Positions 2,612 to 29,522 are shown, numbered from the stretch's first letter. The stretch is 32,000 bases of DNA from Ignicoccus hospitalis KIN4/I (GCF_000017945.1 NC_009776.1:510001-542000), one strand, 5' to 3'. Translations and numbers: made by a program. The notes: a model not told the origin generated them from the sequence alone.

Positions 2612-2800
2612 GTGAAGAAGCGTTACTACGGCCCTTTGTTGAGCGTTGCGCTGAAGCTCGCCCCGTTCTTGGCTCTGACGGCCTTGTTGGCGCTTCCGTT
2701 CGTATTTAAGGAAACGTTCTTCATGCTACTAGGGGTAGCCTTCTTCATATACCTAATCGTCAACCTAGCTTACGTCGCCTACTTAGAACGCTCTCTATGA
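2612..2800 (+). CDS. Hypothetical small membrane protein (2 predicted TM helices)
   Basis: 62-aa ORF with a GTG start. Hydrophobic segments are LLSVALKLAPFLALTALLALPFVF and FFMLLGVAFFIYLIVNLAYVAYL. A promoter-like box lies about 20-25 nt upstream. The 3' end overlaps the convergent glycosyltransferase-like gene by 41 nt. No homolog recognised. Confidence 0.4.
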   Translation: MKKRYYGPLLSVALKLAPFLALTALLALPFVFKETFFMLLGVAFFIYLIVNLAYVAYLERSL

Positions 2801-4097
2801 TTTCCTCTATCGCCTCCTCGCTCCGGGTCCTCTCCCTCAGCTCGCACTCGCACTCCCCCGGACCCGCTTTCACCAACTTGAGGGCGACCTCTAGGAGCTC
2901 CTCGAAGTTGTTCACAACTATCGCGCAGTCACACTTCTTAGTCAAGGCCTCGAGTGTTTTCAAGTATTCTTCGTTATTCCAAATTATGATGGGCTTATTA
3001 AACAAAACGTAGTCAGCTAACTTAGCAGGGGCGCCGTAGAACTTATAAGCTCTGAAGGGGTCGTAGAGGGCTAAGAAGGCGTCGCACTCTCGCGCGTACG
3101 CTTTGTAAAGCTCCTCCTTAACGGTTATGTAGTCGAATTCTACGTTGCTAAAGGCGCCTACCAAGTTCTTGAAGAACCGATATAGGTTTATTGGAGCCCC
3201 GAATATCTTGAACTTTATTTTGTCATGCATATCAAAGGCCTCGTTCATAGCATATATCAACTTCGCCAGCTCCTTCCAGCCTTGATGGGGGTAGAAGCTG
3301 CCGGAAGTACAAAACGTGAAGGGCCCTCCCTCCTTGGAGCTGGGGTACTTTGTCTTGGAGTACAAAGGCGGGTACAAGGCTATCATCTTACCCTTACACA
3401 ACTTCTTTAGAGGCCAAGGCACCTCTTCGAGTATGACCTCGGCCCCTCCTTCAGATATGGTAAACACGAAGTCGTGAAGCAAACAAGACAAGATCCTCGT
3501 GAGCCACACTTGGGAGGCTTGTGCAGCTATAGCCTTAATTTTTGAGGGAAAGGCGTCCACGCCCAGCTCTATCAAGCCCCACAAGTTTTCGTTGAAGTTT
3601 TCGTCAACCAAAATCGCGTCTCGAGGAGAAGAGAGGCGGAGGGCCAGCCAATAGGCCAATGAGAGGGAGGTGGTCGCTGGGGGTCTACTAATTATTAAGC
3701 TACTTAATTTTAACGCCTCCCTAAGCCGTCTAACTCCATCCCTTGACAGTACTAGGGGAGGAAAATAGCTAAAGAGTCCTCTGGTCAACCTTTGGATGGT
3801 TGCGTTTAAGTTTTTAAGATTATAGTAGAGCGGGTTGTACATATCTGCTTCGATTACCTTTATGTTCAATGAGCTGTCGAATTTGGGCTTCTCTACGAAC
3901 ACTCTTCCCGCAAAGACCAAGTCCACCTCGTAGTCTACACCCTTCTCCTTCAAAACTTGAGCTATTGAGGTTGCTAAGTTAACTACATGAGAATAAGAAC
4001 CGCCCGCTACCCGGACCTCCGGGTGGCCGTAAACCACGCTGACTTTTACCAAGTAGCGATCACCTCCTCCCAAACGCTGTAGGAGAACACTTGCCAC
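2760..4097 (-). CDS. Glycosyltransferase-like protein (GT-B / GT4-like, divergent)
   Basis: 445-aa track ORF. The likely real start is TTG at 4052 (codon 16), which removes most of the overlap with asnB. From there the protein reads (L)VKVSVVYGHPEVRVAGGSYSHVVNLATSIAQVLKEKG, a typical GT4 N-terminus. The C-terminal half has YGAPAKLADYVLFNKPIIIW, which resembles the GT1/GT4 donor-binding region. Assignment by eye only. The gene is visibly AT-richer than its neighbours. Confidence 0.5.
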   Translation of the reverse strand: MASVLLQRLGGGDRYLVKVSVVYGHPEVRVAGGSYSHVVNLATSIAQVLKEKGVDYEVDLVFAGRVFVEKPKFDSSLNIKVIEADMYNPLYYNLKNLNATIQRLTRGLFSYFPPLVLSRDGVRRLREALKLSSLIISRPPATTSLSLAYWLALRLSSPRDAILVDENFNENLWGLIELGVDAFPSKIKAIAAQASQVWLTRILSCLLHDFVFTISEGGAEVILEEVPWPLKKLCKGKMIALYPPLYSKTKYPSSKEGGPFTFCTSGSFYPHQGWKELAKLIYAMNEAFDMHDKIKFKIFGAPINLYRFFKNLVGAFSNVEFDYITVKEELYKAYARECDAFLALYDPFRAYKFYGAPAKLADYVLFNKPIIIWNNEEYLKTLEALTKKCDCAIVVNNFEELLEVALKLVKAGPGECECELRERTRSEEAIEEIIESVLSRRRKLG

Positions 4098-5878
4098 GCT
4101 ACGAATGACAACCTCTTCGTATCGTACCTCTCAAATATGTTCGGGTCTATGACCTTTTTTAATATCTCGCTGCTCTTGAGCCTTGAGGGTGCCTCCTCCT
4201 CGGCTATCCTCATTAGGACGTCCTTAGCTTGCTGTCCGAAGCCGACCTTCCTAGATGTGACCTTTCTCCAAGTCTCCTCACTCAAGTATTTCTTTAATAT
4301 CAACTTCCCAATGAGCTTTGGCTCTTTCATCATTATGTATCTCTTCCAAGCTGGGTCTAAGCTCATAGCTTTTTCTATTAACTTGTAGTCCAATAGCGGC
4401 GCCCTGGCTTCCACGCTCGCAGCCATAGAGTAGAAGTCTACCTTCAAGTTCAAGTGGTTGGGTATCCTCTGGTTGTACTCGTACGAGAGGAGCCTCTCGG
4501 CGAGGTTCCTAGGGGCGGAGAGGGACTCCAGAACCCGGTAGCTTAACACTAAGAGGTCGCAGAGCTCCGGGGGGAAGGCCTCGCAGCACTGGGACCTCAA
4601 GGAGAGCCCCCTGGCGGTCACGAGCTTGTGTAGGGTGGCGTAACACAAGGCCTTGTTGTAGTAACTTCTAACTTCCTTCACGACCCAGAAGGGGAGCTCG
4701 AGCAAGGGGAGGGAGGAGAGGGTTAAGGTGAGCTCGTATATTTGTTTATACACGGGGTAGCCGAAGAAGAGCTCGTCCCCTCCCTCCCCGACGATGATTA
4801 CCTTGTAGCCCCTTTCCCTCGCCGCCTTAGCCATCCCGTACCCCATCACCAAGCTGGGGTCAGTTATGGGCAGCCCGACCTTTTTGGTCAGCTCGTAAGT
4901 GAGCTTTATGTAATCCTCAAAGTCGAATTCGACCACTGCGTGGTCGAGGTTTAGCTCCTCAGCAACTTTAGAGGCCAACTCCACTTCGTCGAACTCCCCG
5001 GCGCCCTTAACAGTCACGGTGAAGGTGCTAACGTCGTTCCTGTTGAGTTCCTTCGTTATTATTGAGGCTAGCAACGTAGAGTCCACGCCGGAGCTCAAGG
5101 CCAAGGAGACCGGCACGTCCGCTATTAACCTATACTCCACCGCCCTTATCAGCTCTCGATGGAGCTCCTTCACGTAGCTCGTTATATCACTCACCCTTTT
5201 ATCGAACTTCAAGGTGTAGTACTTCTTCTTTTCTATAACCTTCCCGTCTTTTATTATCATATATTCTCCGTTCCTAAGCAACTTGACGTTTTCGAAGAAG
5301 TGCTGTTCCGGGAGGGGGGAGAAGTGCGCGAAGAGGTAGAAGGCTCCCAAGGGGTTCTTGCTCAAGTTCTTCACGAACGCCTTAATCGCTGAAGGCTCTG
5401 AGGCGAGAACGACGAAGTCCTCACCTTGGTAATAGAATAAAGGCTTCTTGCCCACGTGGTCCCTGGCAACGAATATTGTGCCCTTCCTTTCGTCGTATAT
5501 CGCGAACGCGAACATCCCCCTTAAGGAGTGAACCACGTCCACTCCCATCTCCTCGTACGCGTGCAACAAGACCTCGGTGTCCGTGTTGGACAAGAACTCG
5601 TGTTCGTCCTTCAAGTTCTGGCGGATTTCTTTATAATTGTATATCTCACCGTTCAACACTACTCCCACGGAACCGTCCTCGTTGAACATGGGTTGGAGGC
5701 CCTCGTCCTTAGGGTCTATTATGGCTAGCCTGACGTTGCCCAGCGCGGTCTTGCGGTCCTCAGATATCCAATACCCCCTCCCGTCCGGCCCCCTGTGTTC
5801 TATTGCGTCCAGAGCAGAGACGAGTCGGCGCTCCTCCACGCACGGCCTAGCGCAGCTCACCGCTACGATCCCGCACAA
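4046..5878 (-). CDS. asnB: Asparagine synthase (glutamine-hydrolysing) family amidotransferase
   Basis: 610-aa ORF. TTG-TGC-GGG-ATC gives MCGIVAV, carrying the Ntn glutaminase Cys. Also LNGEIYNY and the PP-loop LSSGVDST. An in-frame TGA three codons upstream fixes TTG as the start. AGGTGA lies about 7 nt upstream of the TTG. Confidence 0.87.
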   Translation of the reverse strand: MCGIVAVSCARPCVEERRLVSALDAIEHRGPDGRGYWISEDRKTALGNVRLAIIDPKDEGLQPMFNEDGSVGVVLNGEIYNYKEIRQNLKDEHEFLSNTDTEVLLHAYEEMGVDVVHSLRGMFAFAIYDERKGTIFVARDHVGKKPLFYYQGEDFVVLASEPSAIKAFVKNLSKNPLGAFYLFAHFSPLPEQHFFENVKLLRNGEYMIIKDGKVIEKKKYYTLKFDKRVSDITSYVKELHRELIRAVEYRLIADVPVSLALSSGVDSTLLASIITKELNRNDVSTFTVTVKGAGEFDEVELASKVAEELNLDHAVVEFDFEDYIKLTYELTKKVGLPITDPSLVMGYGMAKAARERGYKVIIVGEGGDELFFGYPVYKQIYELTLTLSSLPLLELPFWVVKEVRSYYNKALCYATLHKLVTARGLSLRSQCCEAFPPELCDLLVLSYRVLESLSAPRNLAERLLSYEYNQRIPNHLNLKVDFYSMAASVEARAPLLDYKLIEKAMSLDPAWKRYIMMKEPKLIGKLILKKYLSEETWRKVTSRKVGFGQQAKDVLMRIAEEEAPSRLKSSEILKKVIDPNIFERYDTKRLSFVAWQVFSYSVWEEVIATW

Positions 5879-25944: not shown

Positions 25945-26511
25945 TTGATTAGGGCGCTCCCGGCCTTGCTGGCCTTGGCGTTGCTCGTAACTGCGGAGCC
26001 ATGGGCGGTGCCAGGGTTCACCTTGGTATATTCGTACCACGTGAAGGCCTCCGGATTGTTGTCCCTCAGGGGAAAGGAAGTCAACGGCACCATAACTTAC
26101 GTCTACTTAAACACCACCGGCAACACTATATACGTTAATATGACCGTCAACGCTAACGTAACCCTTCCCAATGGAAAGATAAAGGTGTTTAAGAGTTCGA
26201 CGATAATGAAGTTTAGAGACGACGCGTCGCTGATATTCTTAACTAACAAGACGTTGGAAGGGCTAAGGGGGCAAATGCGTTGCGAGGACGGGTACTGTAC
26301 CTTGAACGTCTCCACTGAGCAAGCGTTGAACACGGGAGCTAAGGTAGTACTGAACGCCACTTCCAAGTTCGACTTGAAGTACATGGTTATGGTTGAAAGT
26401 CACAGCGTGTTGAAAATGGCGAGCTTGCACGGGAAGAGGGCCCTAGGGACCATGACCACTGAGATGAGGCTGGTTAAGATCGTTCCTCCCTCAACGGGTA
26501 ACGTCCGGTAA
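25945..26511 (+). CDS. Hypothetical secreted, sequon-rich protein
   Basis: 188 aa with a TTG start. Signal-peptide-like N-terminus MIRALPALLALALLVTAEPWA. Seven N-x-S/T sequons (NGT, NTT, NMT, NVT, NKT, NVS, NAT). The 3' end overlaps the PurF-like gene by 38 nt. Confidence 0.6.
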   Translation: MIRALPALLALALLVTAEPWAVPGFTLVYSYHVKASGLLSLRGKEVNGTITYVYLNTTGNTIYVNMTVNANVTLPNGKIKVFKSSTIMKFRDDASLIFLTNKTLEGLRGQMRCEDGYCTLNVSTEQALNTGAKVVLNATSKFDLKYMVMVESHSVLKMASLHGKRALGTMTTEMRLVKIVPPSTGNVR

Positions 26512-27748
26512 AGCAGCCCATACAAGCCTTGATCGGTATTAGTTTTTCTAACTCCTCCGGCGGGAGCCACTCGATGCTCTTAGCCCCTATATACTCGGCT
26601 ATCTTTTCGTTGTCCATCTTAGCGGCGATCAGCTGGTCCGCGGGGGGCACCTCCACGCCGTAAGGGCAATGGCTTATTATCTTCGGGCTCCCTATGAGTA
26701 CGTCGACGCTCACAGCTCCCACCTTGCTCTTTAGGGTTTGTATCACCGTCTTCAAGGTCAGGCCTCTGACCACGCTATCATCAATAATAAGGGCCCTCTT
26801 CTTTCTGAAGGTGCTCCTTATCGGGTTCAGCTTCAATTGTACTCCTATCAACCTCTCGCTCAAGTCTGGCTTTATGGCAGTCCTCGCCTTCCTCCCGGTA
26901 GCGATAAAGCCCAAGCGGTAGTCTTTCTTGGCCTCCTTAGAGTACCCTATCGCAAATGGTATCGCAGTCTCCGGGACGCCCACGACCACGTCCACGTCCC
27001 TCGGGTAGAGCTGGGCGAGCCTCTTGCCTATCCTCTCCCTCACTTCGTAGACCTCTACGCCGTCTATGACCGAGTCCGGCCTCGCGTTGTAGATGTACTC
27101 GAAGGCACAGACCACCTTCTCGCTGGGCTTCACCGAAACCTCGTTGAAGTACAGCTGAGAGGCGTAGAAGCCCGTCCCGGGGTCGAGGTCCTTCTTCAAG
27201 TCGGCGCCTATGACGTCGAACGCACAGCTCTCGGAGGCGAAGGTGACCATGTCGAAGCCCAAGCCTCCCAGCTGGAGGGGCCTCAGCCCCGGAGGGGAGC
27301 GGTAGGCCAAGAGCTCGCCGGAGGCAGTTAAGGCGAGCATGCTAAAGGCTCCCTTTAAGTCCTTCACGAGCTCTTTGAGTAGGTCCTCCCCCTCGTAGCC
27401 GCTGGCCTTCAGCTCCGAGAGCTTCTTGGCGACGTCGTAGGGAGTGGCGTTGAACAGCCTGCCGTCCAAGACTACAGCCGCCTCCGCGGGCTCTTCTGAG
27501 TAGGCCCGGTAACCCGGGTGTTCGCTCCACACCCCTCCTATGGCCGCCCAGCCGGCCAAGTTGGTGGCTGGAGGCAAGACCTCGTCGACGAAGCCCTTGC
27601 CACAGACCCACTCTATCTTTTCACCGTCGGCGACGTAGAGGCACGCCTCCTCTTGTCCCCTGTGTTGGAGCGAGAGCAAGGAGTAGTACACGAACCTAGC
27701 TACGTTCCATACCGGGTCGAAGGCCAGAGCGCCCGCTATTCCGGCCAA
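26474..27748 (-). CDS. Amidophosphoribosyltransferase (PurF)-like protein lacking the N-terminal catalytic Cys
   Basis: 424 aa. LQHRGQE, the PRPP loop ALIIDDSVVRG, and Fe-S ligand contexts VVCAFEYIYNARPDS, SHCPYG and CMGCFTGRYP. The N-terminus is TTG-GCC-GGA-ATA = M-A-G-I instead of M-C-G-I. An in-frame TGA lies two codons upstream. Confidence 0.85.
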   Translation of the reverse strand: MAGIAGALAFDPVWNVARFVYYSLLSLQHRGQEEACLYVADGEKIEWVCGKGFVDEVLPPATNLAGWAAIGGVWSEHPGYRAYSEEPAEAAVVLDGRLFNATPYDVAKKLSELKASGYEGEDLLKELVKDLKGAFSMLALTASGELLAYRSPPGLRPLQLGGLGFDMVTFASESCAFDVIGADLKKDLDPGTGFYASQLYFNEVSVKPSEKVVCAFEYIYNARPDSVIDGVEVYEVRERIGKRLAQLYPRDVDVVVGVPETAIPFAIGYSKEAKKDYRLGFIATGRKARTAIKPDLSERLIGVQLKLNPIRSTFRKKRALIIDDSVVRGLTLKTVIQTLKSKVGAVSVDVLIGSPKIISHCPYGVEVPPADQLIAAKMDNEKIAEYIGAKSIEWLPPEELEKLIPIKACMGCFTGRYPLREERS

Positions 27749-27754
27749 CCTTCA

Positions 27755-29272
27755 CTACCGCTGTCGCGGTCCTCCCCTTAGGTTAAATTCGACCCCGCCG
27801 AACAAGGCCTTGTAGGCGTTCAGCTCGCTGCAATAGCTTATCCCACCTACCTCGAGCTGGGAGGCGACGTGCCACAACGCCTTCACCGGGTCCGCCCAGC
27901 CCCTCCTCACCCCCTCTTGTTCGTATACGCAGCCCACCGTGAGCAGTACGAGCTTCGCGACCGTCTGAGGGGGCAAGACGCCTTGCTTATACTTTGAGTA
28001 ACACTCCTTGCAAAGCAGTACCTTGAGCAAGTCCTCGGACTTGTTTAAGAAACTGGATATGTCGAATACGTTCTCGAACTCCCCTCGAGAAACCCTCTCG
28101 ACAAACCTTTCAACAGCATTTATATATTCGTCGACGTCCACGTCTAAGAACTTGTCGCAGACCGCGCACTTGGGCCTGAATATCCTCTTAACTACCAAGT
28201 TCTTCCAAACGCACTCGCCCTCACCCTCTACGACTCTAATCATCTTTATGTTCAAACCCAGCGCGTCCAGCTTCTTCTGCACCGGACAAGCCCTCACGCA
28301 TGCATGGCAGCCCACGCACGCGGCCGGCAGGTGAGTTAAGATCACCATAGCCGGGGTGGGCGTTCTGAGGACCAGCGAGCGCGTGGGACAAGCCTCGCTG
28401 CAAGCTGTACACGCGTCGCAGAGCTTCGGGTTTACCACGACTTCGTAGAAGTCCTCCAAAGAGTAGGCCATCTTTATCGAGACCAAGGGGGAGACGTCCT
28501 CGGGGAGGGAGTGGTCGCAACGCCGGGGCTCCGCTTTGGAGGGCCTCACGCAGCCCTCGTCGTCACAGTACTCCCAGCCCAAGACCTTGGTGAAGTATTC
28601 TACAATTATCCTGACGCGTAATGGTATTCCTAACACGACCAACGTCCTTTCCTTAAAGTCCGACGGGGAGAGCGTGTCGGGGGTCCTCCAGACCACCCTT
28701 TCGGCCGCGCCGGCCTTGGCCGGAGGGACGGCCGCGAAGAGCTCGTTGGGCGCGAGGCCGGGCATGTCGAGGGAGTAAAGTGGGCAAGCGGCCACGCACA
28801 GGCCGCAAGAGGTACACTTGTCCGGGTCTATCGATACCCTACCCTCCTTGAGCCTTATCGCATTAGAAGGGCAAACCGACTTACACATCCTACATGAAGG
28901 GGACGCGCAAGCGAAGGTGTTCTCCGGTACTGCGACAATCCTAGCCTTGAGCCCTTCCTTTACTAGCTTCTGGATTGCGCCCCTGCGGTCGACCTTCCCC
29001 CTCGGGTACTGGAAGCTTACGGAGTAGTGCACCTCCCAGTGGTCCGCGAGCTTGGCGAGGGTCTCCACTACCTCTTCGGGACAGCCGTCGTGGCACAAGA
29101 AAAGCCGGTACCAGAAGGAGTCCTTCGCTTCCTTCGCGAGCTCCGTCAGACCCTCCGGGTCCCCGACCGCTACCACGCCCCCCCTCTTCAAGGCGTTGCG
29201 TACGTCGTCCTTCACGACGGGGTACTTGTCGAAGGCGCTCGGTCTGTCGCTTAACTTGATCACTTCTACCAT
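27755..29272 (-). CDS. Polyferredoxin-like Fe-S protein (four 4Fe-4S-type motifs plus a CxxC...CxxC ribbon)
   Basis: 505 aa with an ATG start. Cluster motifs CASPSCRMCKSVCP, CTSCGLCVAACP, CDACTACSEACP and CVGCHACVRACP. C-terminal CAVCDKF...CKECYSKY. The N- and C-terminal regions are unassigned. Confidence 0.8.
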   Translation of the reverse strand: MVEVIKLSDRPSAFDKYPVVKDDVRNALKRGGVVAVGDPEGLTELAKEAKDSFWYRLFLCHDGCPEEVVETLAKLADHWEVHYSVSFQYPRGKVDRRGAIQKLVKEGLKARIVAVPENTFACASPSCRMCKSVCPSNAIRLKEGRVSIDPDKCTSCGLCVAACPLYSLDMPGLAPNELFAAVPPAKAGAAERVVWRTPDTLSPSDFKERTLVVLGIPLRVRIIVEYFTKVLGWEYCDDEGCVRPSKAEPRRCDHSLPEDVSPLVSIKMAYSLEDFYEVVVNPKLCDACTACSEACPTRSLVLRTPTPAMVILTHLPAACVGCHACVRACPVQKKLDALGLNIKMIRVVEGEGECVWKNLVVKRIFRPKCAVCDKFLDVDVDEYINAVERFVERVSRGEFENVFDISSFLNKSEDLLKVLLCKECYSKYKQGVLPPQTVAKLVLLTVGCVYEQEGVRRGWADPVKALWHVASQLEVGGISYCSELNAYKALFGGVEFNLRGGPRQR

Positions 29273-29324
29273 TTGCGCTCATAGGGAGTTCGCGGGAGAA
29301 GTAATATCGTGTGGCCCTCAAAAA

Positions 29325-29333
29325 CTTAATAAT
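29325..29333 (+). promoter_or_regulatory. TATA-like box (CTTAATAAT) upstream of tRNA-Pro
   Basis: caAAAACTTAATAATCCC lies 30-38 nt upstream of the tRNA 5' end (29363). It is similar to the tRNA-iMet upstream box. Confidence 0.45.
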
Positions 29334-29362
29334 CCCTTGAGGGTTGCCGTAGGACGGCGAGA

Positions 29363-29477
29363 GGGCCCGTCGTCTAGCCTGGACTAGGATGCGGGGTACG
29401 CCGGCGAGCCCCGCGACGGGTCCGGCGCCCGACTCGGGTCCCCGTGGCCCCGGGTTCAAATCCCGGCGGGCCCACCA
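29363..29477 (+). tRNA. tRNA-Pro (CGG) with a 36-nt intron, CCA encoded
   Basis: Hand fold: GGGCCCG UC GUCU AGCCUGGACUA GGAU G CGGGG U[intron]UCGGGU CCCCG UGGCC CCGGG UUCAAAU CCCGG CGGGCCC A CCA. After splicing the anticodon loop is UUCGGGU, giving anticodon CGG, G37 and discriminator A73. The mature length is 79 nt. Confidence 0.88.
29398..29433 (+). other. tRNA intron bounded by a bulge-helix-bulge (hBHBh') motif, inserted between tRNA positions 32 and 33
   Basis: The central 4-bp helix pairs 29392-29395 (CGGG) with 29428-29431 (CCCG). The 3-nt bulges are GUA (29396-98) and ACU (29432-34). The intron helix pairs 29399-29404 (CGCCGG) with 29422-29427 (CCGGCG). The outer exon helix has G29391:C29435 and U29390:G29436. 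The exact cleavage phase within the bulges is assumed to be after the 2nd bulge nucleotide. Confidence 0.75.
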
Positions 29478-29522
29478 CTCAAAACTCCTACGCGAACTCC
29501 TCTCGGTCTGGGCCCACAAGTA

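What the first reader, a model, noticed from the sequence alone, without database searches (positions are those of the whole stretch)
26474..29272. PurF paralog with a dead glutaminase site, 6 nt downstream of a 505-aa four-cluster polyferredoxin
Seen in the sequence: two minus-strand ORFs are separated by only 6 nt (TAG tgaagg TTG). The upstream ORF has four ferredoxin-type cluster motifs (CASPSCRMCKSVCP, CTSCGLCVAACP, CDACTACSEACP, CVGCHACVRACP) and a CxxC...CxxC ribbon, flanked by regions I cannot assign. The downstream ORF is clearly PurF-like (LQHRGQE; PRPP loop ALIIDDSVVRG; Fe-S ligand contexts VVCAFEYIYNARPDS, SHCPYG, CMGCFTGRYP). However, it begins M-A-G-I-A-G where active PurF and other Ntn amidotransferases have M-C-G-I. 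An in-frame TGA two codons upstream rules out a longer N-terminus. A by-eye alignment also puts IGGVWSEH where PurF has GHxRYsT (the Arg73 position) and LDGRLFN where PurF has HNGNLxN (the Asn101 position). Inference: the glutaminase half is catalytically dead while the PRTase/Fe-S half looks intact. The protein would then use free ammonia or another nitrogen donor, or have a different role. Its tight coupling to a large redox protein has no counterpart in textbook purine biosynthesis, which makes this my strongest candidate for an undescribed two-component system.
Basis: partly seen in the sequence, partly recalled or inferred. Interest (0 to 1): 0.7.

Follow-up and report, generated by a model that had tools for sequence, protein, structure and literature searches.

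The report
Known cysteine-less PurF paralog (PurF') of Ignicoccus
The gene is the Ignicoccus hospitalis copy of PurF', an archaeal duplicate of the first purine-synthesis enzyme that lacks its glutamine-splitting cysteine and was catalogued in 2011; its closeness to an iron-sulfur protein gene is confined to this genus and probably does not mark a two-protein system.

Summary
Two minus-strand ORFs (505 aa, four Fe-S motifs; 424 aa, PurF-like, starting M-A-G-I) lie 6 nt apart. The window is Ignicoccus hospitalis.

The 424-aa protein is Igni_0600. Brown et al. 2011 already list it as PurF' ("Igni_0600 no C"). A canonical MCG-PurF (Igni_0902) sits elsewhere in the genome.

PurF' is a monophyletic, pan-archaeal paralog. 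In my alignment Cys1 is absent in 115 of 120 members, Asn101 is usually Asp, and Arg73/Tyr74 are lost. The PRPP loop, Arg332 and all four Fe-S cysteines are kept.

In 70 of 80 species-level loci PurF' lies directly after purF, and in 63 of those directly before purD. The Fe-S gene precedes it only in the Ignicoccus lineage. There the spacer is 37-67 nt and carries a TATA-like box. The 6-nt gap arose because the I. hospitalis Fe-S ORF reads on into that spacer.

Published proteomics gives PurF' about 12 times the Fe-S protein and about 50 times canonical PurF, similar to other purine enzymes.

Most likely function (untested): glutamine-independent, ammonia-using phosphoribosylamine synthesis. 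An Fe-S/PurF' partnership is not excluded but is unlikely.

The parts
26474..27748 (-). purF' (Igni_0600 / Iho_0600; arCOG00094), 424 aa, TTG start, N-terminus M-A-G-I-A-G. A paralog of glutamine PRPP amidotransferase without the Cys1 nucleophile.
   Evidence: AF2 model pLDDT 91.7 with TM 0.86 to B. subtilis PurF 1ao0.
27134..27748 (-). N-terminal Ntn-type (glutaminase-like) domain, about aa 1-205. Substitutions: C1A, R73W, Y74S, N101D, D127T. Arg26/Gly27/Gly102 equivalents are kept.
   Evidence: Alignment columns. No Pfam GATase hit. The fold is retained. dN/dS about 0.12, so the domain is under purifying selection.
26477..27133 (-). PRTase domain, about aa 206-424. PRPP loop I322-D-D-S-V-V-R-G; Arg289 (= E. 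coli R332); Fe-S ligands C214, C361, C409, C412. PurF' signature G257-V-P-E-T-A and T284-G285...A291 in the flexible loop.
   Evidence: dN/dS about 0.065.
27749..27754 (-). 6-nt spacer (TGAAGG) between the Fe-S ORF stop (TAG) and the purF' TTG start.
27783..27789 (-). AATTTAA box at -41 to -35 from the purF' start: a putative TATA box for a dedicated purF' promoter. In I. hospitalis it lies inside the end of the Fe-S ORF.
   Evidence: It aligns with AAATTTAAGC (L008) and GATATTAAGG (I. islandicus), both in true intergenic spacers. Similar boxes lie at -30 to -45 of GlyRS, UPPS, PAN and Iho_0599. The chance of an all-A/T 7-mer in a given 15-nt coding window is 2.8%. Promoter function is inferred, not shown.
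27755..27793 (-). I. hospitalis-specific 3' extension of the Fe-S ORF (about 13 codons, ...VEFNLRGGPRQR*) across the ancestral spacer.
   Evidence: The protein alignment shows a unique C-terminal tail. In the DNA alignment the TGA stops of L008 and I. islandicus fall at the I. hospitalis 'TCGAA'.
27755..29272 (-). Igni_0601 / Iho_0601 (arCOG02187), 505 aa. An Fe-S protein restricted to the Ignicoccus lineage, with two 2x[4Fe-4S] ferredoxin domains separated and flanked by unassignable domains.
28769..28918 (-). First dicluster ferredoxin domain (aa 119-168; C122/127/130/134 and C153/156/159/163).
28274..28435 (-). Second dicluster ferredoxin domain (aa 280-333; C285/288/291/295 and C319/322/325/329).
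28001..28168 (-). CxxC...CxxC pair (C369, C372, C421, C424), possibly a Zn-ribbon or rubredoxin-like site. All four cysteines are invariant in six homologs.
   Evidence: No Pfam match.

Best explanation
The 424-aa ORF is Igni_0600, the Ignicoccus hospitalis member of the PurF' family (arCOG00094). PurF' is an ancient archaeal tandem duplicate of glutamine PRPP amidotransferase. It has lost the Cys1 nucleophile and the glutamine-binding and oxyanion residues. It keeps a folded, selectively constrained N-domain, a complete PRPP-binding and catalytic PRTase site, and the [4Fe-4S] ligands.

The organism also has a canonical MCG-PurF (Igni_0902) elsewhere in the genome.

Most likely function (inferred, not shown): PurF' makes 5-phosphoribosylamine from PRPP using free ammonia instead of glutamine, feeding PurD. 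In I. hospitalis, under the NH4+-containing growth conditions used, it carries most of the flux.

The upstream 505-aa Fe-S protein (Igni_0601) is a fast-evolving protein specific to the Ignicoccus lineage. Its adjacency to purF' arose after the pur genes scattered in this lineage. purF' probably has its own promoter. The 6-nt spacing is a recent accident: the Fe-S ORF reads through into the old spacer.

Rough confidence by layer:
- Identity as PurF': above 0.95.
- No obligate Fe-S/PurF' system: about 0.75.
- Ammonia-dependent PRA synthase: about 0.5.
For: Identity
- A 100% identical protein is annotated from I. hospitalis.
- Brown et al. 2011, Additional File 1, lists PurF = Igni_0902 and PurF' = '(Igni_0600 no C)'.
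- The canonical PurF, P0159, is on the same 1.297-Mb replicon and starts MCGVAA...GHVRYST.

Residues
- 124 Cys1-column sequences (119 canonical PurF plus five Cys-retaining PurF'-clade members): C1, N101 and D127 in 124/124; R73 in 117; Y74 in 119.
- PurF': C1 in 0/115; N101->D in 91/115; R73 and Y74 absent.
- PurF' keeps D366/D367/S368, R332 and all four Fe-S cysteines in 115/115.

Fold and selection
- AF2 pLDDT 91.7 and TM 0.86 to PDB 1ao0.
- dN/dS is 0.12 for the N-domain and 0.065 for the PRTase domain.

Clade and synteny
- The PurF' clade is monophyletic in an NJ tree, n = 120.
- purF lies directly upstream in 70/80 species loci, and purD also lies directly downstream in 63 (examples).

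Proteomics (Giannone 2011, Table S1), normalised spectral counts in pure culture
- PurF' 104; Fe-S protein 8.7; canonical PurF 2.1.
- PurD 193, PurC 267, PurE 148, PurQ 73, PurM 30.

Fe-S protein
- Only about 6 full-length homologs exist among 1.84 billion representatives.
- It is 39% identical in a genome where PurF' is 83-84% identical.

Spacer and promoter
- Gaps are 37-67 nt in the other genomes.
- The AT-box is positionally aligned, and the I. hospitalis ORF extension is visible in the alignments.

Established knowledge: E. coli PurF C1A/C1S mutants lose glutamine-dependent activity but keep NH3-dependent activity (Mei & Zalkin 1989, as cited in PMC3261824).
Against: - No PurF' has been assayed, so ammonia-dependent activity is pure inference.
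- The flexible loop that closes over PRPP is systematically altered. N327T and R328G are nearly invariant, F334 becomes A or M, and K326 is Ala in Ignicoccus. This could mean a changed reaction or a loss of catalysis rather than a simple change of nitrogen source.
- The conserved Asp at the Asn101 position and the constrained N-domain suggest that domain still does something the ammonia model does not explain.
- The Fe-S gene/purF' adjacency survives in every Ignicoccus-lineage genome examined, although the flanks on both sides have been rearranged. That is more than a purely incidental neighbourhood predicts.
- The proteomic ratios come from one spectral-counting study.
- The promoter is inferred from sequence only.
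Confidence: 0.6

Rival explanations
1. The Fe-S protein and PurF' form a real functional module in Ignicoccus. For example, the four-cluster protein could donate electrons to, repair or sense the [4Fe-4S] cluster of PurF', coupling the first purine step to redox state.
For: - The same-strand adjacency is kept in all Ignicoccus-lineage genomes seen: the window, L001, L003/L013, L008, L010, L011, L012 (partial) and L090.
- Meanwhile the flanks change. The upstream neighbour differs in I. islandicus, and the downstream neighbours differ in I. islandicus and I. pacificus.
- Every Fe-S homolog whose context could be read is next to purF'.
- PurF' carries an Fe-S cluster.
Against: - The pairing is absent in the next relatives (67% and 53% identity) and in 76 of 80 species loci.
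- Spacers of 37-67 nt carry a TATA-like box.
- The two proteins differ about 12-fold in abundance.
- dN is 0.34 for the Fe-S protein against 0.105 for PurF'.
- The PurF cluster is known as a structural and O2-sensing cluster, not a redox-cycling one (established knowledge of B. subtilis PurF).
- Pur genes are scattered throughout this genome, so any neighbour is possible.
Confidence: 0.13
2. PurF' is a non-catalytic or regulatory partner (a pseudoenzyme). It would form hetero-oligomers with canonical PurF and/or hand labile phosphoribosylamine to PurD.
For: - PurF' almost always co-occurs with a canonical PurF, in tightly packed purF-purF'-purD order, in 63-70 of 80 loci across many phyla.
- The N-domain is conserved although catalytically dead.
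- PurF enzymes are homo-oligomers, so paralog mixing is plausible (established knowledge).
Against: - All PRTase catalytic and PRPP-binding residues are conserved, which a scaffold would not need.
- In I. hospitalis PurF' exceeds PurF about 50-fold (152 vs 3 spectra), and the genes are unlinked.
Confidence: 0.17
3. PurF' catalyses a different PRPP-dependent transfer, with a nucleophile other than ammonia. It would then feed a pathway other than, or in addition to, purine and thiamine synthesis.
For: - Family-wide invariant changes occur in the flexible loop and the pyrophosphate loop: T-G for N-R, and G-V-P-E-T-A for P-V-P-D-S-G.
- Asp is conserved at the Asn101 position.
Against: The gene sits between purF and purD in most genomes. 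Its abundance matches the other pur enzymes. No alternative acceptor is suggested by the gene context.
Confidence: 0.1

Closest known systems
PurF' of Crenarchaeota (Brown, Hoopes, White & Sarisky 2011, Biol Direct 6:63; arCOG00094)
   Same: This is the same family, and the same gene is listed there ('Igni_0600 no C'). It is PurF-like, has Ala in place of the N-terminal Cys, co-exists with a canonical PurF, and carries the same proposed ammonia-dependent role.
   Different: In most genomes purF' is flanked by purF and purD. In Ignicoccus it is unlinked from all pur genes and follows a lineage-specific Fe-S gene. My survey also finds the family well outside Crenarchaeota: Asgard lineages, Bathyarchaeia, Nitrososphaerota, and several euryarchaeal-type MAGs.
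Canonical glutamine PRPP amidotransferase PurF (B. subtilis 1ao0/1gph, E. coli 1ecf; TIGR01134)
   Same: Two-domain fold (TM 0.86), PRPP loop, Arg332, and the four [4Fe-4S] ligands of the B. subtilis type.
   Different: It has no Cys1, Arg73, Tyr74, Asn101 or Asp127. The flexible loop and channel residues are altered. It scores below the equivalog cut-off (240 vs 350 bits). Its N-domain is shorter.
E. coli PurF C1A/C1S site-directed mutants (Mei & Zalkin 1989, cited in PMC3261824)
   Same: Same substitution at the nucleophile. These mutants are the experimental precedent that such a protein keeps NH3-dependent PRA synthesis while losing glutamine use.
   Different: Those are laboratory mutants with an otherwise intact glutamine site and channel. 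PurF' has remodelled both.
MvhB/VhuB/FwdF-type polyferredoxins
   Same: The best sequence matches of the 505-aa protein fall in their 2x[4Fe-4S] ferredoxin domains.
   Different: Igni_0601 has only two dicluster domains (4 clusters), embedded in about 340 residues of unassignable sequence. It has no hydrogenase or formylmethanofuran dehydrogenase gene context. Full-length homologs exist only in the Ignicoccus lineage.

Membership tests
Canonical PurF (glutamine PRPP amidotransferase, TIGR01134 equivalog) | N-terminal nucleophile Cys (Cys1), exposed after Met or propeptide removal | tested here: not met
   The sequence is M-A-G-I with in-frame stops directly upstream. The Cys1 column is Ala in all 10 Ignicoccus-lineage sequences and Cys in 124/124 sequences classed as canonical by that column (119 canonical PurF plus five Cys-retaining PurF'-clade members).
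Canonical PurF (glutamine PRPP amidotransferase, TIGR01134 equivalog) | Glutamine-site and oxyanion residues Arg73, Asn101, Gly102, Asp127 | tested here: not met
   They are W74, D95, G96 and T102; only the Gly is retained.
Canonical PurF (glutamine PRPP amidotransferase, TIGR01134 equivalog) | Score at or above the curated equivalog cut-off | tested here: not met
   240.4 bits against a 350-bit cut-off. No Pfam GATase_6/7 hit.
Canonical PurF (glutamine PRPP amidotransferase, TIGR01134 equivalog) | Type I PRTase domain with PRPP loop, and [4Fe-4S] ligands of the B. subtilis class | tested here: met
   I322-DDSVVRG; R289; C214, C361, C409, C412.
PurF' (Brown et al. 2011; arCOG00094) | Full-length PurF-like protein lacking the N-terminal Cys (Ala, Val and similar) | tested here: met
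   The fold is confirmed.
PurF' (Brown et al. 2011; arCOG00094) | Falls in a clade separate from canonical PurF | tested here: met
   In the NJ tree all 120 first-search hits form one clade sharing the T-G...A loop signature.
PurF' (Brown et al. 2011; arCOG00094) | Co-exists with a canonical Cys-bearing PurF in the same genome | tested here: met
   P0159 (I. hospitalis), P0157 (I. pacificus) and P0193 (I. islandicus) all start MCG. Igni_0902 is listed.
PurF' (Brown et al. 2011; arCOG00094) | Usual (not defining) neighbourhood next to purF and other pur genes | tested here: not met
   There is no pur gene in the 32-kb window. purF is upstream in 70/80 other loci.
PurF' (Brown et al. 2011; arCOG00094) | Ammonia-dependent PRPP aminotransferase activity (proposed) | not testable with these tools
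   No biochemical report was found.
Polyferredoxin (MvhB/VhuB type) | Many tandem 2x[4Fe-4S] domains making up most of the protein, encoded with hydrogenase/Hdr/Fwd genes | tested here: not met
   There are two dicluster domains only (aa about 119-168 and 280-333). The other regions have no Pfam match. NCBIfam scores are far below the cut-offs. No such neighbours are present.

The most novel reading that the evidence does not exclude
In the Ignicoccus lineage PurF' may have been captured into a dedicated module with the lineage-specific four-cluster Fe-S protein Igni_0601. That protein would reduce, repair or sense the PurF' cluster. The first committed, glutamine-independent step of purine synthesis would then be gated by cellular redox or H2 status. 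Such a link could matter for an organism that must also supply purines to Nanoarchaeum equitans.

A milder and more probable novelty (about 0.4) is that PurF', not PurF, carries most phosphoribosylamine flux in I. hospitalis and perhaps in many archaea.
Probability: 0.12. Interest if true: 0.6.

Novelty: already known. Interest (0 to 1): 0.3.

Why it matters
PurF' sits between purF and purD in most of the 80 species-level archaeal loci surveyed, spanning many phyla, yet its activity has never been measured. If it is an ammonia-using phosphoribosylamine synthase that carries the main flux, as the I. hospitalis proteome hints, then the textbook first step of purine synthesis (glutamine-dependent) does not describe much of the archaeal domain. 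For genome annotation, the label 'amidophosphoribosyltransferase' on these genes is likely wrong with respect to the nitrogen donor. The Fe-S neighbour itself adds little: it is a fast-evolving, genus-restricted protein of unknown role.

Tried and rejected
Checks that returned nothing
- Structure of the Fe-S protein: the AF2 model from 5 sequences has pLDDT 61, and Foldseek against the PDB gave nothing at E <= 0.001.
- Pfam on the three non-ferredoxin segments at E <= 10 found nothing meaningful.
- Distant two-ferredoxin-domain proteins from the exhaustive search share only the Fer4 domains; one has an FlpD insert, so they say nothing about function.
- The context of the weak Acidianus homolog P0126 is not on record.
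- Literature searches for locus tags (Igni_0600/0601/0599; Saci_1611/1612, SSO0632/0633, Msed_1981/1982) and for 'PurF-like/PurF2/paralog' found no functional study of PurF'.

Ideas rejected
- Start-site or frameshift error hiding a Cys: rejected because of the in-frame TAG-TGA upstream and the same [MV]-A-G-[IV] N-terminal motif in the nine other protein clusters of the Ignicoccus lineage.
- Complementary degeneration (PurF keeping only the glutaminase, PurF' only the PRTase): rejected because canonical archaeal PurFs keep D366/D367/R332 in 122-124 of 124 sequences.

- AlphaFold-Multimer on the pair could not be run.


Full report
**1. The observation**

The window carries two adjacent minus-strand ORFs. 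One is 27755-29272 (505 aa, ATG start). The other is 26474-27748 (424 aa, TTG start).

Pfam sees only 4Fe-4S ferredoxin domains in the first protein, at aa about 120-170 and 280-333. In the second it sees only a phosphoribosyltransferase domain and no glutamine amidotransferase domain. The NCBIfam PurF equivalog scores 240 bits, below its 350-bit cut-off. The best solved relatives are B. subtilis PurF 1ao0/1gph (E about 1e-65).

**2. Whose genome, and is this known?**

The 424-aa protein is 100% identical to a protein annotated as amidophosphoribosyltransferase from Ignicoccus hospitalis, on a 1,297,538-bp contig.

Brown et al. 2011 (Biol Direct 6:63, PMC3261824) report that each purine-making crenarchaeon has two PurF-like genes falling in two clusters. 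One has the N-terminal Cys. The other, named PurF', lacks it ("many had alanine or valine"). They propose that PurF' might be an ammonia-dependent phosphoribosylpyrophosphate aminotransferase. Their Additional File 1 lists PurF = Igni_0902 and PurF' = "(Igni_0600 no C)" for I. hospitalis. The core of the finding is therefore already in the literature, down to this gene.

I found no later functional study.

I verified the second gene directly. P0159, from I. hospitalis KIN4/I on the same replicon, is 432 aa and begins MCGVAA...GHVRYST. I. pacificus and I. islandicus also have MCG-PurFs. P0159 has no pur neighbours either, and the 32-kb window contains no other pur gene. Pur genes are simply scattered in this small genome.

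**3. Anatomy of PurF'**

I aligned 120 relatives of the window protein, 120 relatives of a canonical archaeal PurF, and the E. coli and B. subtilis enzymes. The two bacterial sequences are partly from memory; the E. coli numbering reproduces the literature positions R73, N101, G102 and D127.

| Position (E. coli numbering) | Cys1-column set (n = 124)* | PurF' (n = 115 without Cys) | I. hospitalis |
|---|---|---|---|
| Cys1 | 124/124 | 0/115 (Ala 53, Ser 26, Gly 12, Pro 12, Thr 6, Val 5) | Ala2 |
| Arg73 | 117/124 | never Arg | Trp74 |
| Tyr74 | 119/124 | never Tyr | Ser75 |
| Asn101 | 124/124 | Asp in 91/115 | Asp95 |
| Asp127 | 124/124 | Asp in about a third | Thr102 |

*Sequences with Cys in the Cys1 column: 119 canonical PurF (117 archaeal relatives plus E. 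coli and B. subtilis) and the five Cys-retaining PurF'-clade members described below, which account for the non-Arg73/non-Tyr74 entries.

Arg26, Gly27 and Gly102 are kept in PurF'. In the PRTase half, PurF' keeps D366-D367-S368, Arg332 and all four Fe-S cysteines in 115/115 sequences (query C214, C361, C409, C412).

The family also has its own signature. N327->Thr and R328->Gly are nearly invariant. F334 becomes Ala or Met. The pyrophosphate loop reads G-V-P-E/D-T-A in place of P-V-P-D-S-G.

An NJ tree puts all 120 relatives of the window protein in one clade. Five members nested inside it, from Bathyarchaeia and Freyarchaeota, still have Cys1, Asn101 and Asp127.

An AF2 model of the window protein is confident (pLDDT 91.7). 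It superposes on B. subtilis PurF over both domains (TM 0.86), so the Ntn fold is retained.

Between I. hospitalis and a relative with 85% identity, dN/dS is about 0.12 for the N-domain and about 0.065 for the PRTase domain (dS is near saturation). The "dead" domain is therefore not decaying.

**4. Gene neighbourhood**

*Within the Ignicoccus lineage*, the Fe-S gene directly precedes purF' on the same strand in every genome examined:

| Genome / locus | Gap |
|---|---|
| I. islandicus (L001) | 40 nt |
| I. pacificus (L003/L013) | 67 nt |
| MAG L008 | 40 nt |
| L090 | 37 nt |
| L010-L012 | about 40 nt (L010, L011); L012 cut at the contig end |

The flanks differ. In I. islandicus the upstream neighbour is a thiolase, not the HTH gene. 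The downstream genes differ in I. islandicus and I. pacificus.

*Outside that lineage* the pairing disappears. A relative at 67% identity has purF' beside ribosomal protein genes. A relative at 53% identity has purC-purF-purF'-purD. So do a Thermoprotei MAG and Saccharolobus.

I then scanned one genome per GTDB species with a PurF' profile, which returned 80 loci:
- 70 have a canonical purF directly upstream, and 63 of those also have purD directly downstream.
- 4 have the Fe-S gene upstream; all are Ignicoccus lineage.
- 3 have other neighbours.
- 3 are cut by contig ends.

These loci span Thermoproteota, Nitrososphaerota, Bathyarchaeia, Nezhaarchaeales, Methanomethylicia, Asgard lineages, and MAGs labelled Theionarchaea, Methanofastidiosia and Thermococci.

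**5. The 6-nt gap and the promoter**

The Fe-S protein of I. hospitalis has a unique C-terminal tail...GGVEFNLRGGPRQR. In the DNA alignment, the TGA stops of L008 and I. islandicus align with I. hospitalis "TCGAA". Their spacer boxes AAATTTAAGC and GATATTAAGG align with I. hospitalis GAATTTAACC, which there encodes E-F-N. So an indel let the I. hospitalis ORF run about 13 codons into the former spacer.

The AATTTAA box lies at -41 to -35 from the purF' start. That position and composition match the boxes upstream of GlyRS, UPPS, PAN and Iho_0599 in the same window. An all-A/T 7-mer occurs in only 2.8% of 15-nt coding windows here. I infer that purF' has its own promoter. This is not demonstrated.

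**6. The Fe-S protein**

A word-indexed search found five full-length relatives (63, 62, 39 and 32% identity, plus the protein itself). An exhaustive profile search of 1.84 billion representatives found six full-length members and two fragments below E = 1e-30. Everything else matched only through ferredoxin domains.

Twenty-six cysteines are invariant among six homologs. They are the 16 of four [4Fe-4S] motifs plus C60, C64, C252, C354, C369, C372, C421, C424, C448 and C481.

The N-terminal, middle and C-terminal regions match no Pfam family. The model gave no significant structural match.

The protein evolves about three times faster than PurF' (dN 0.34 vs 0.105). In L090 it is 39% identical to the I. 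hospitalis protein, while the adjacent PurF' is 83-84% identical.

**7. Expression**

Data are from Table S1 of Giannone et al. 2011 (PLoS One 6:e22942, PMC3149612).

| Protein | Adjusted spectral counts (pure / co-culture) | Normalised counts, pure culture |
|---|---|---|
| Iho_0600 (PurF') | 152 / 114 | 104 |
| Iho_0601 (Fe-S protein) | 15 / 14 | 8.7 |
| Iho_0902 (canonical PurF) | 3 / 0 | 2.1 |

Other purine enzymes in pure culture score PurD 193, PurC 267, PurE 148, PurQ 73 and PurM 30.

PurF' is thus a real, abundant protein at the level of the rest of the pathway. It is about 12-fold above its Fe-S neighbour and about 50-fold above canonical PurF. This is one spectral-counting data set and should be read with that caution.

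**8. Interpretation**

*Shown:*
- Identity as PurF'.
- Loss of the glutaminase catalytic set.
- Retention of the PRTase and Fe-S sites and of the fold.
- Purifying selection on both domains.
- Co-existence with a canonical PurF.
- The pan-archaeal purF-purF'-purD arrangement.
- The Fe-S adjacency is confined to the Ignicoccus lineage.
- The 6-nt spacing is confined to I. hospitalis.

*Inferred:* PurF' makes phosphoribosylamine from PRPP and free ammonia. The experimental precedent is the E. coli C1A/C1S mutants, which keep NH3-dependent activity (cited). In I. hospitalis it carries most of the flux.

*Rivals:*
- A genuine Fe-S/PurF' module restricted to Ignicoccus. The conserved adjacency amid flank rearrangement is the point in its favour.
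- A regulatory or scaffold role with PurF or PurD. This fits the tandem arrangement but not the 50:1 abundance or the intact catalytic residues.
- A different PRPP-dependent reaction. This fits the remodelled flexible loop.

**9. Verdict**

However, the object is a catalogued family member, not an undescribed system, and the proposed coupling to the Fe-S protein is weakly supported.

The remaining interest lies in the still-untested biochemistry of PurF' and in the proteomic hint that it, rather than PurF, is the working enzyme.

Noticed in passing
window 29363-29477 (+): A tRNA-Pro(CGG) gene with a 36-nt intron and an encoded CCA lies between the Fe-S gene start and the HTH gene. Default ARAGORN and Rfam at gathering threshold both missed it. 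ARAGORN with introns allowed finds it. It explains the long 'intergenic' region and makes the overlapping 192-aa ORF 28941-29519 (-) spurious.
   Followed up: partly
loci L014-L089 (GTDB species representatives): The PurF' clade is not limited to Crenarchaeota as described in 2011. It occurs in Nitrososphaerota, Bathyarchaeia, Nezhaarchaeales, Methanomethylicia, Asgard lineages (Njord-, Jord-, Frey-, Hod-, Wukong-archaeota), and MAGs labelled Theionarchaea, Methanofastidiosia, Thermococci and Undinarchaeota. It is nearly always in purF-purF'-purD order.
   Followed up: partly
L021, L029, L044, L046, L048, L049, L054, L056, L075; proteins P0035, P0042, P0049, P0051, P0063: Nine PurF'-clade loci (mostly Jord- and Freyarchaeia, some Bathyarchaeia/Thermoproteota) still carry Cys at the nucleophile position, and the five clade proteins checked also keep Asn101 and Asp127. 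The nine loci nevertheless sit directly after a canonical purF. They nest inside the Cys-less clade in the NJ tree. This implies either repeated independent loss of the cysteine or a tree artefact.
   Followed up: partly
PurF' N-termini: The residue replacing Cys1 is always Ala, Ser, Gly, Pro, Thr or Val. These are exactly the small residues that allow removal of the initiator Met, and the residue is always followed by Gly. A free, small N-terminal residue therefore seems to remain under constraint. Ser and Thr are nucleophiles in other Ntn hydrolases, but Ignicoccus has Ala.
   Followed up: no
Giannone 2011 Table S1; gene Igni_0902 lies outside the window: Canonical PurF of I. hospitalis is almost undetectable in the proteome (3 and 0 spectra). 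PurF' and the other purine enzymes are abundant.
   Followed up: partly
window 4046-5878 (-): Asparagine synthase (glutamine-hydrolysing), another Ntn amidotransferase, starts TTG-TGC-GGG = M-C-G. The genome therefore does keep the Cys1 nucleophile in a sister enzyme that also uses a TTG start. This is a useful internal control.
   Followed up: yes
window 25945-26511 (+): A 188-aa ORF (Iho_0599) has predicted signal peptide and TM features and was not detected in the proteome. It converges on purF' and overlaps its 3' end by 38 nt. The overlap and the gene are conserved in L008 and L090.
   Followed up: no
window 2760-4097 (-): A 445-aa ORF with no NCBIfam match overlaps the start of the asparagine synthase gene by about 50 nt.
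   Followed up: no
L005 265-1188 (+): In the MAG whose PurF' is 67% identical, the gene upstream of purF' is a 307-aa product with a Ribosomal_L2_C hit, longer than a usual L2. It lies beside an S19-L22-S3-L29 cluster on the other strand.
   Followed up: no
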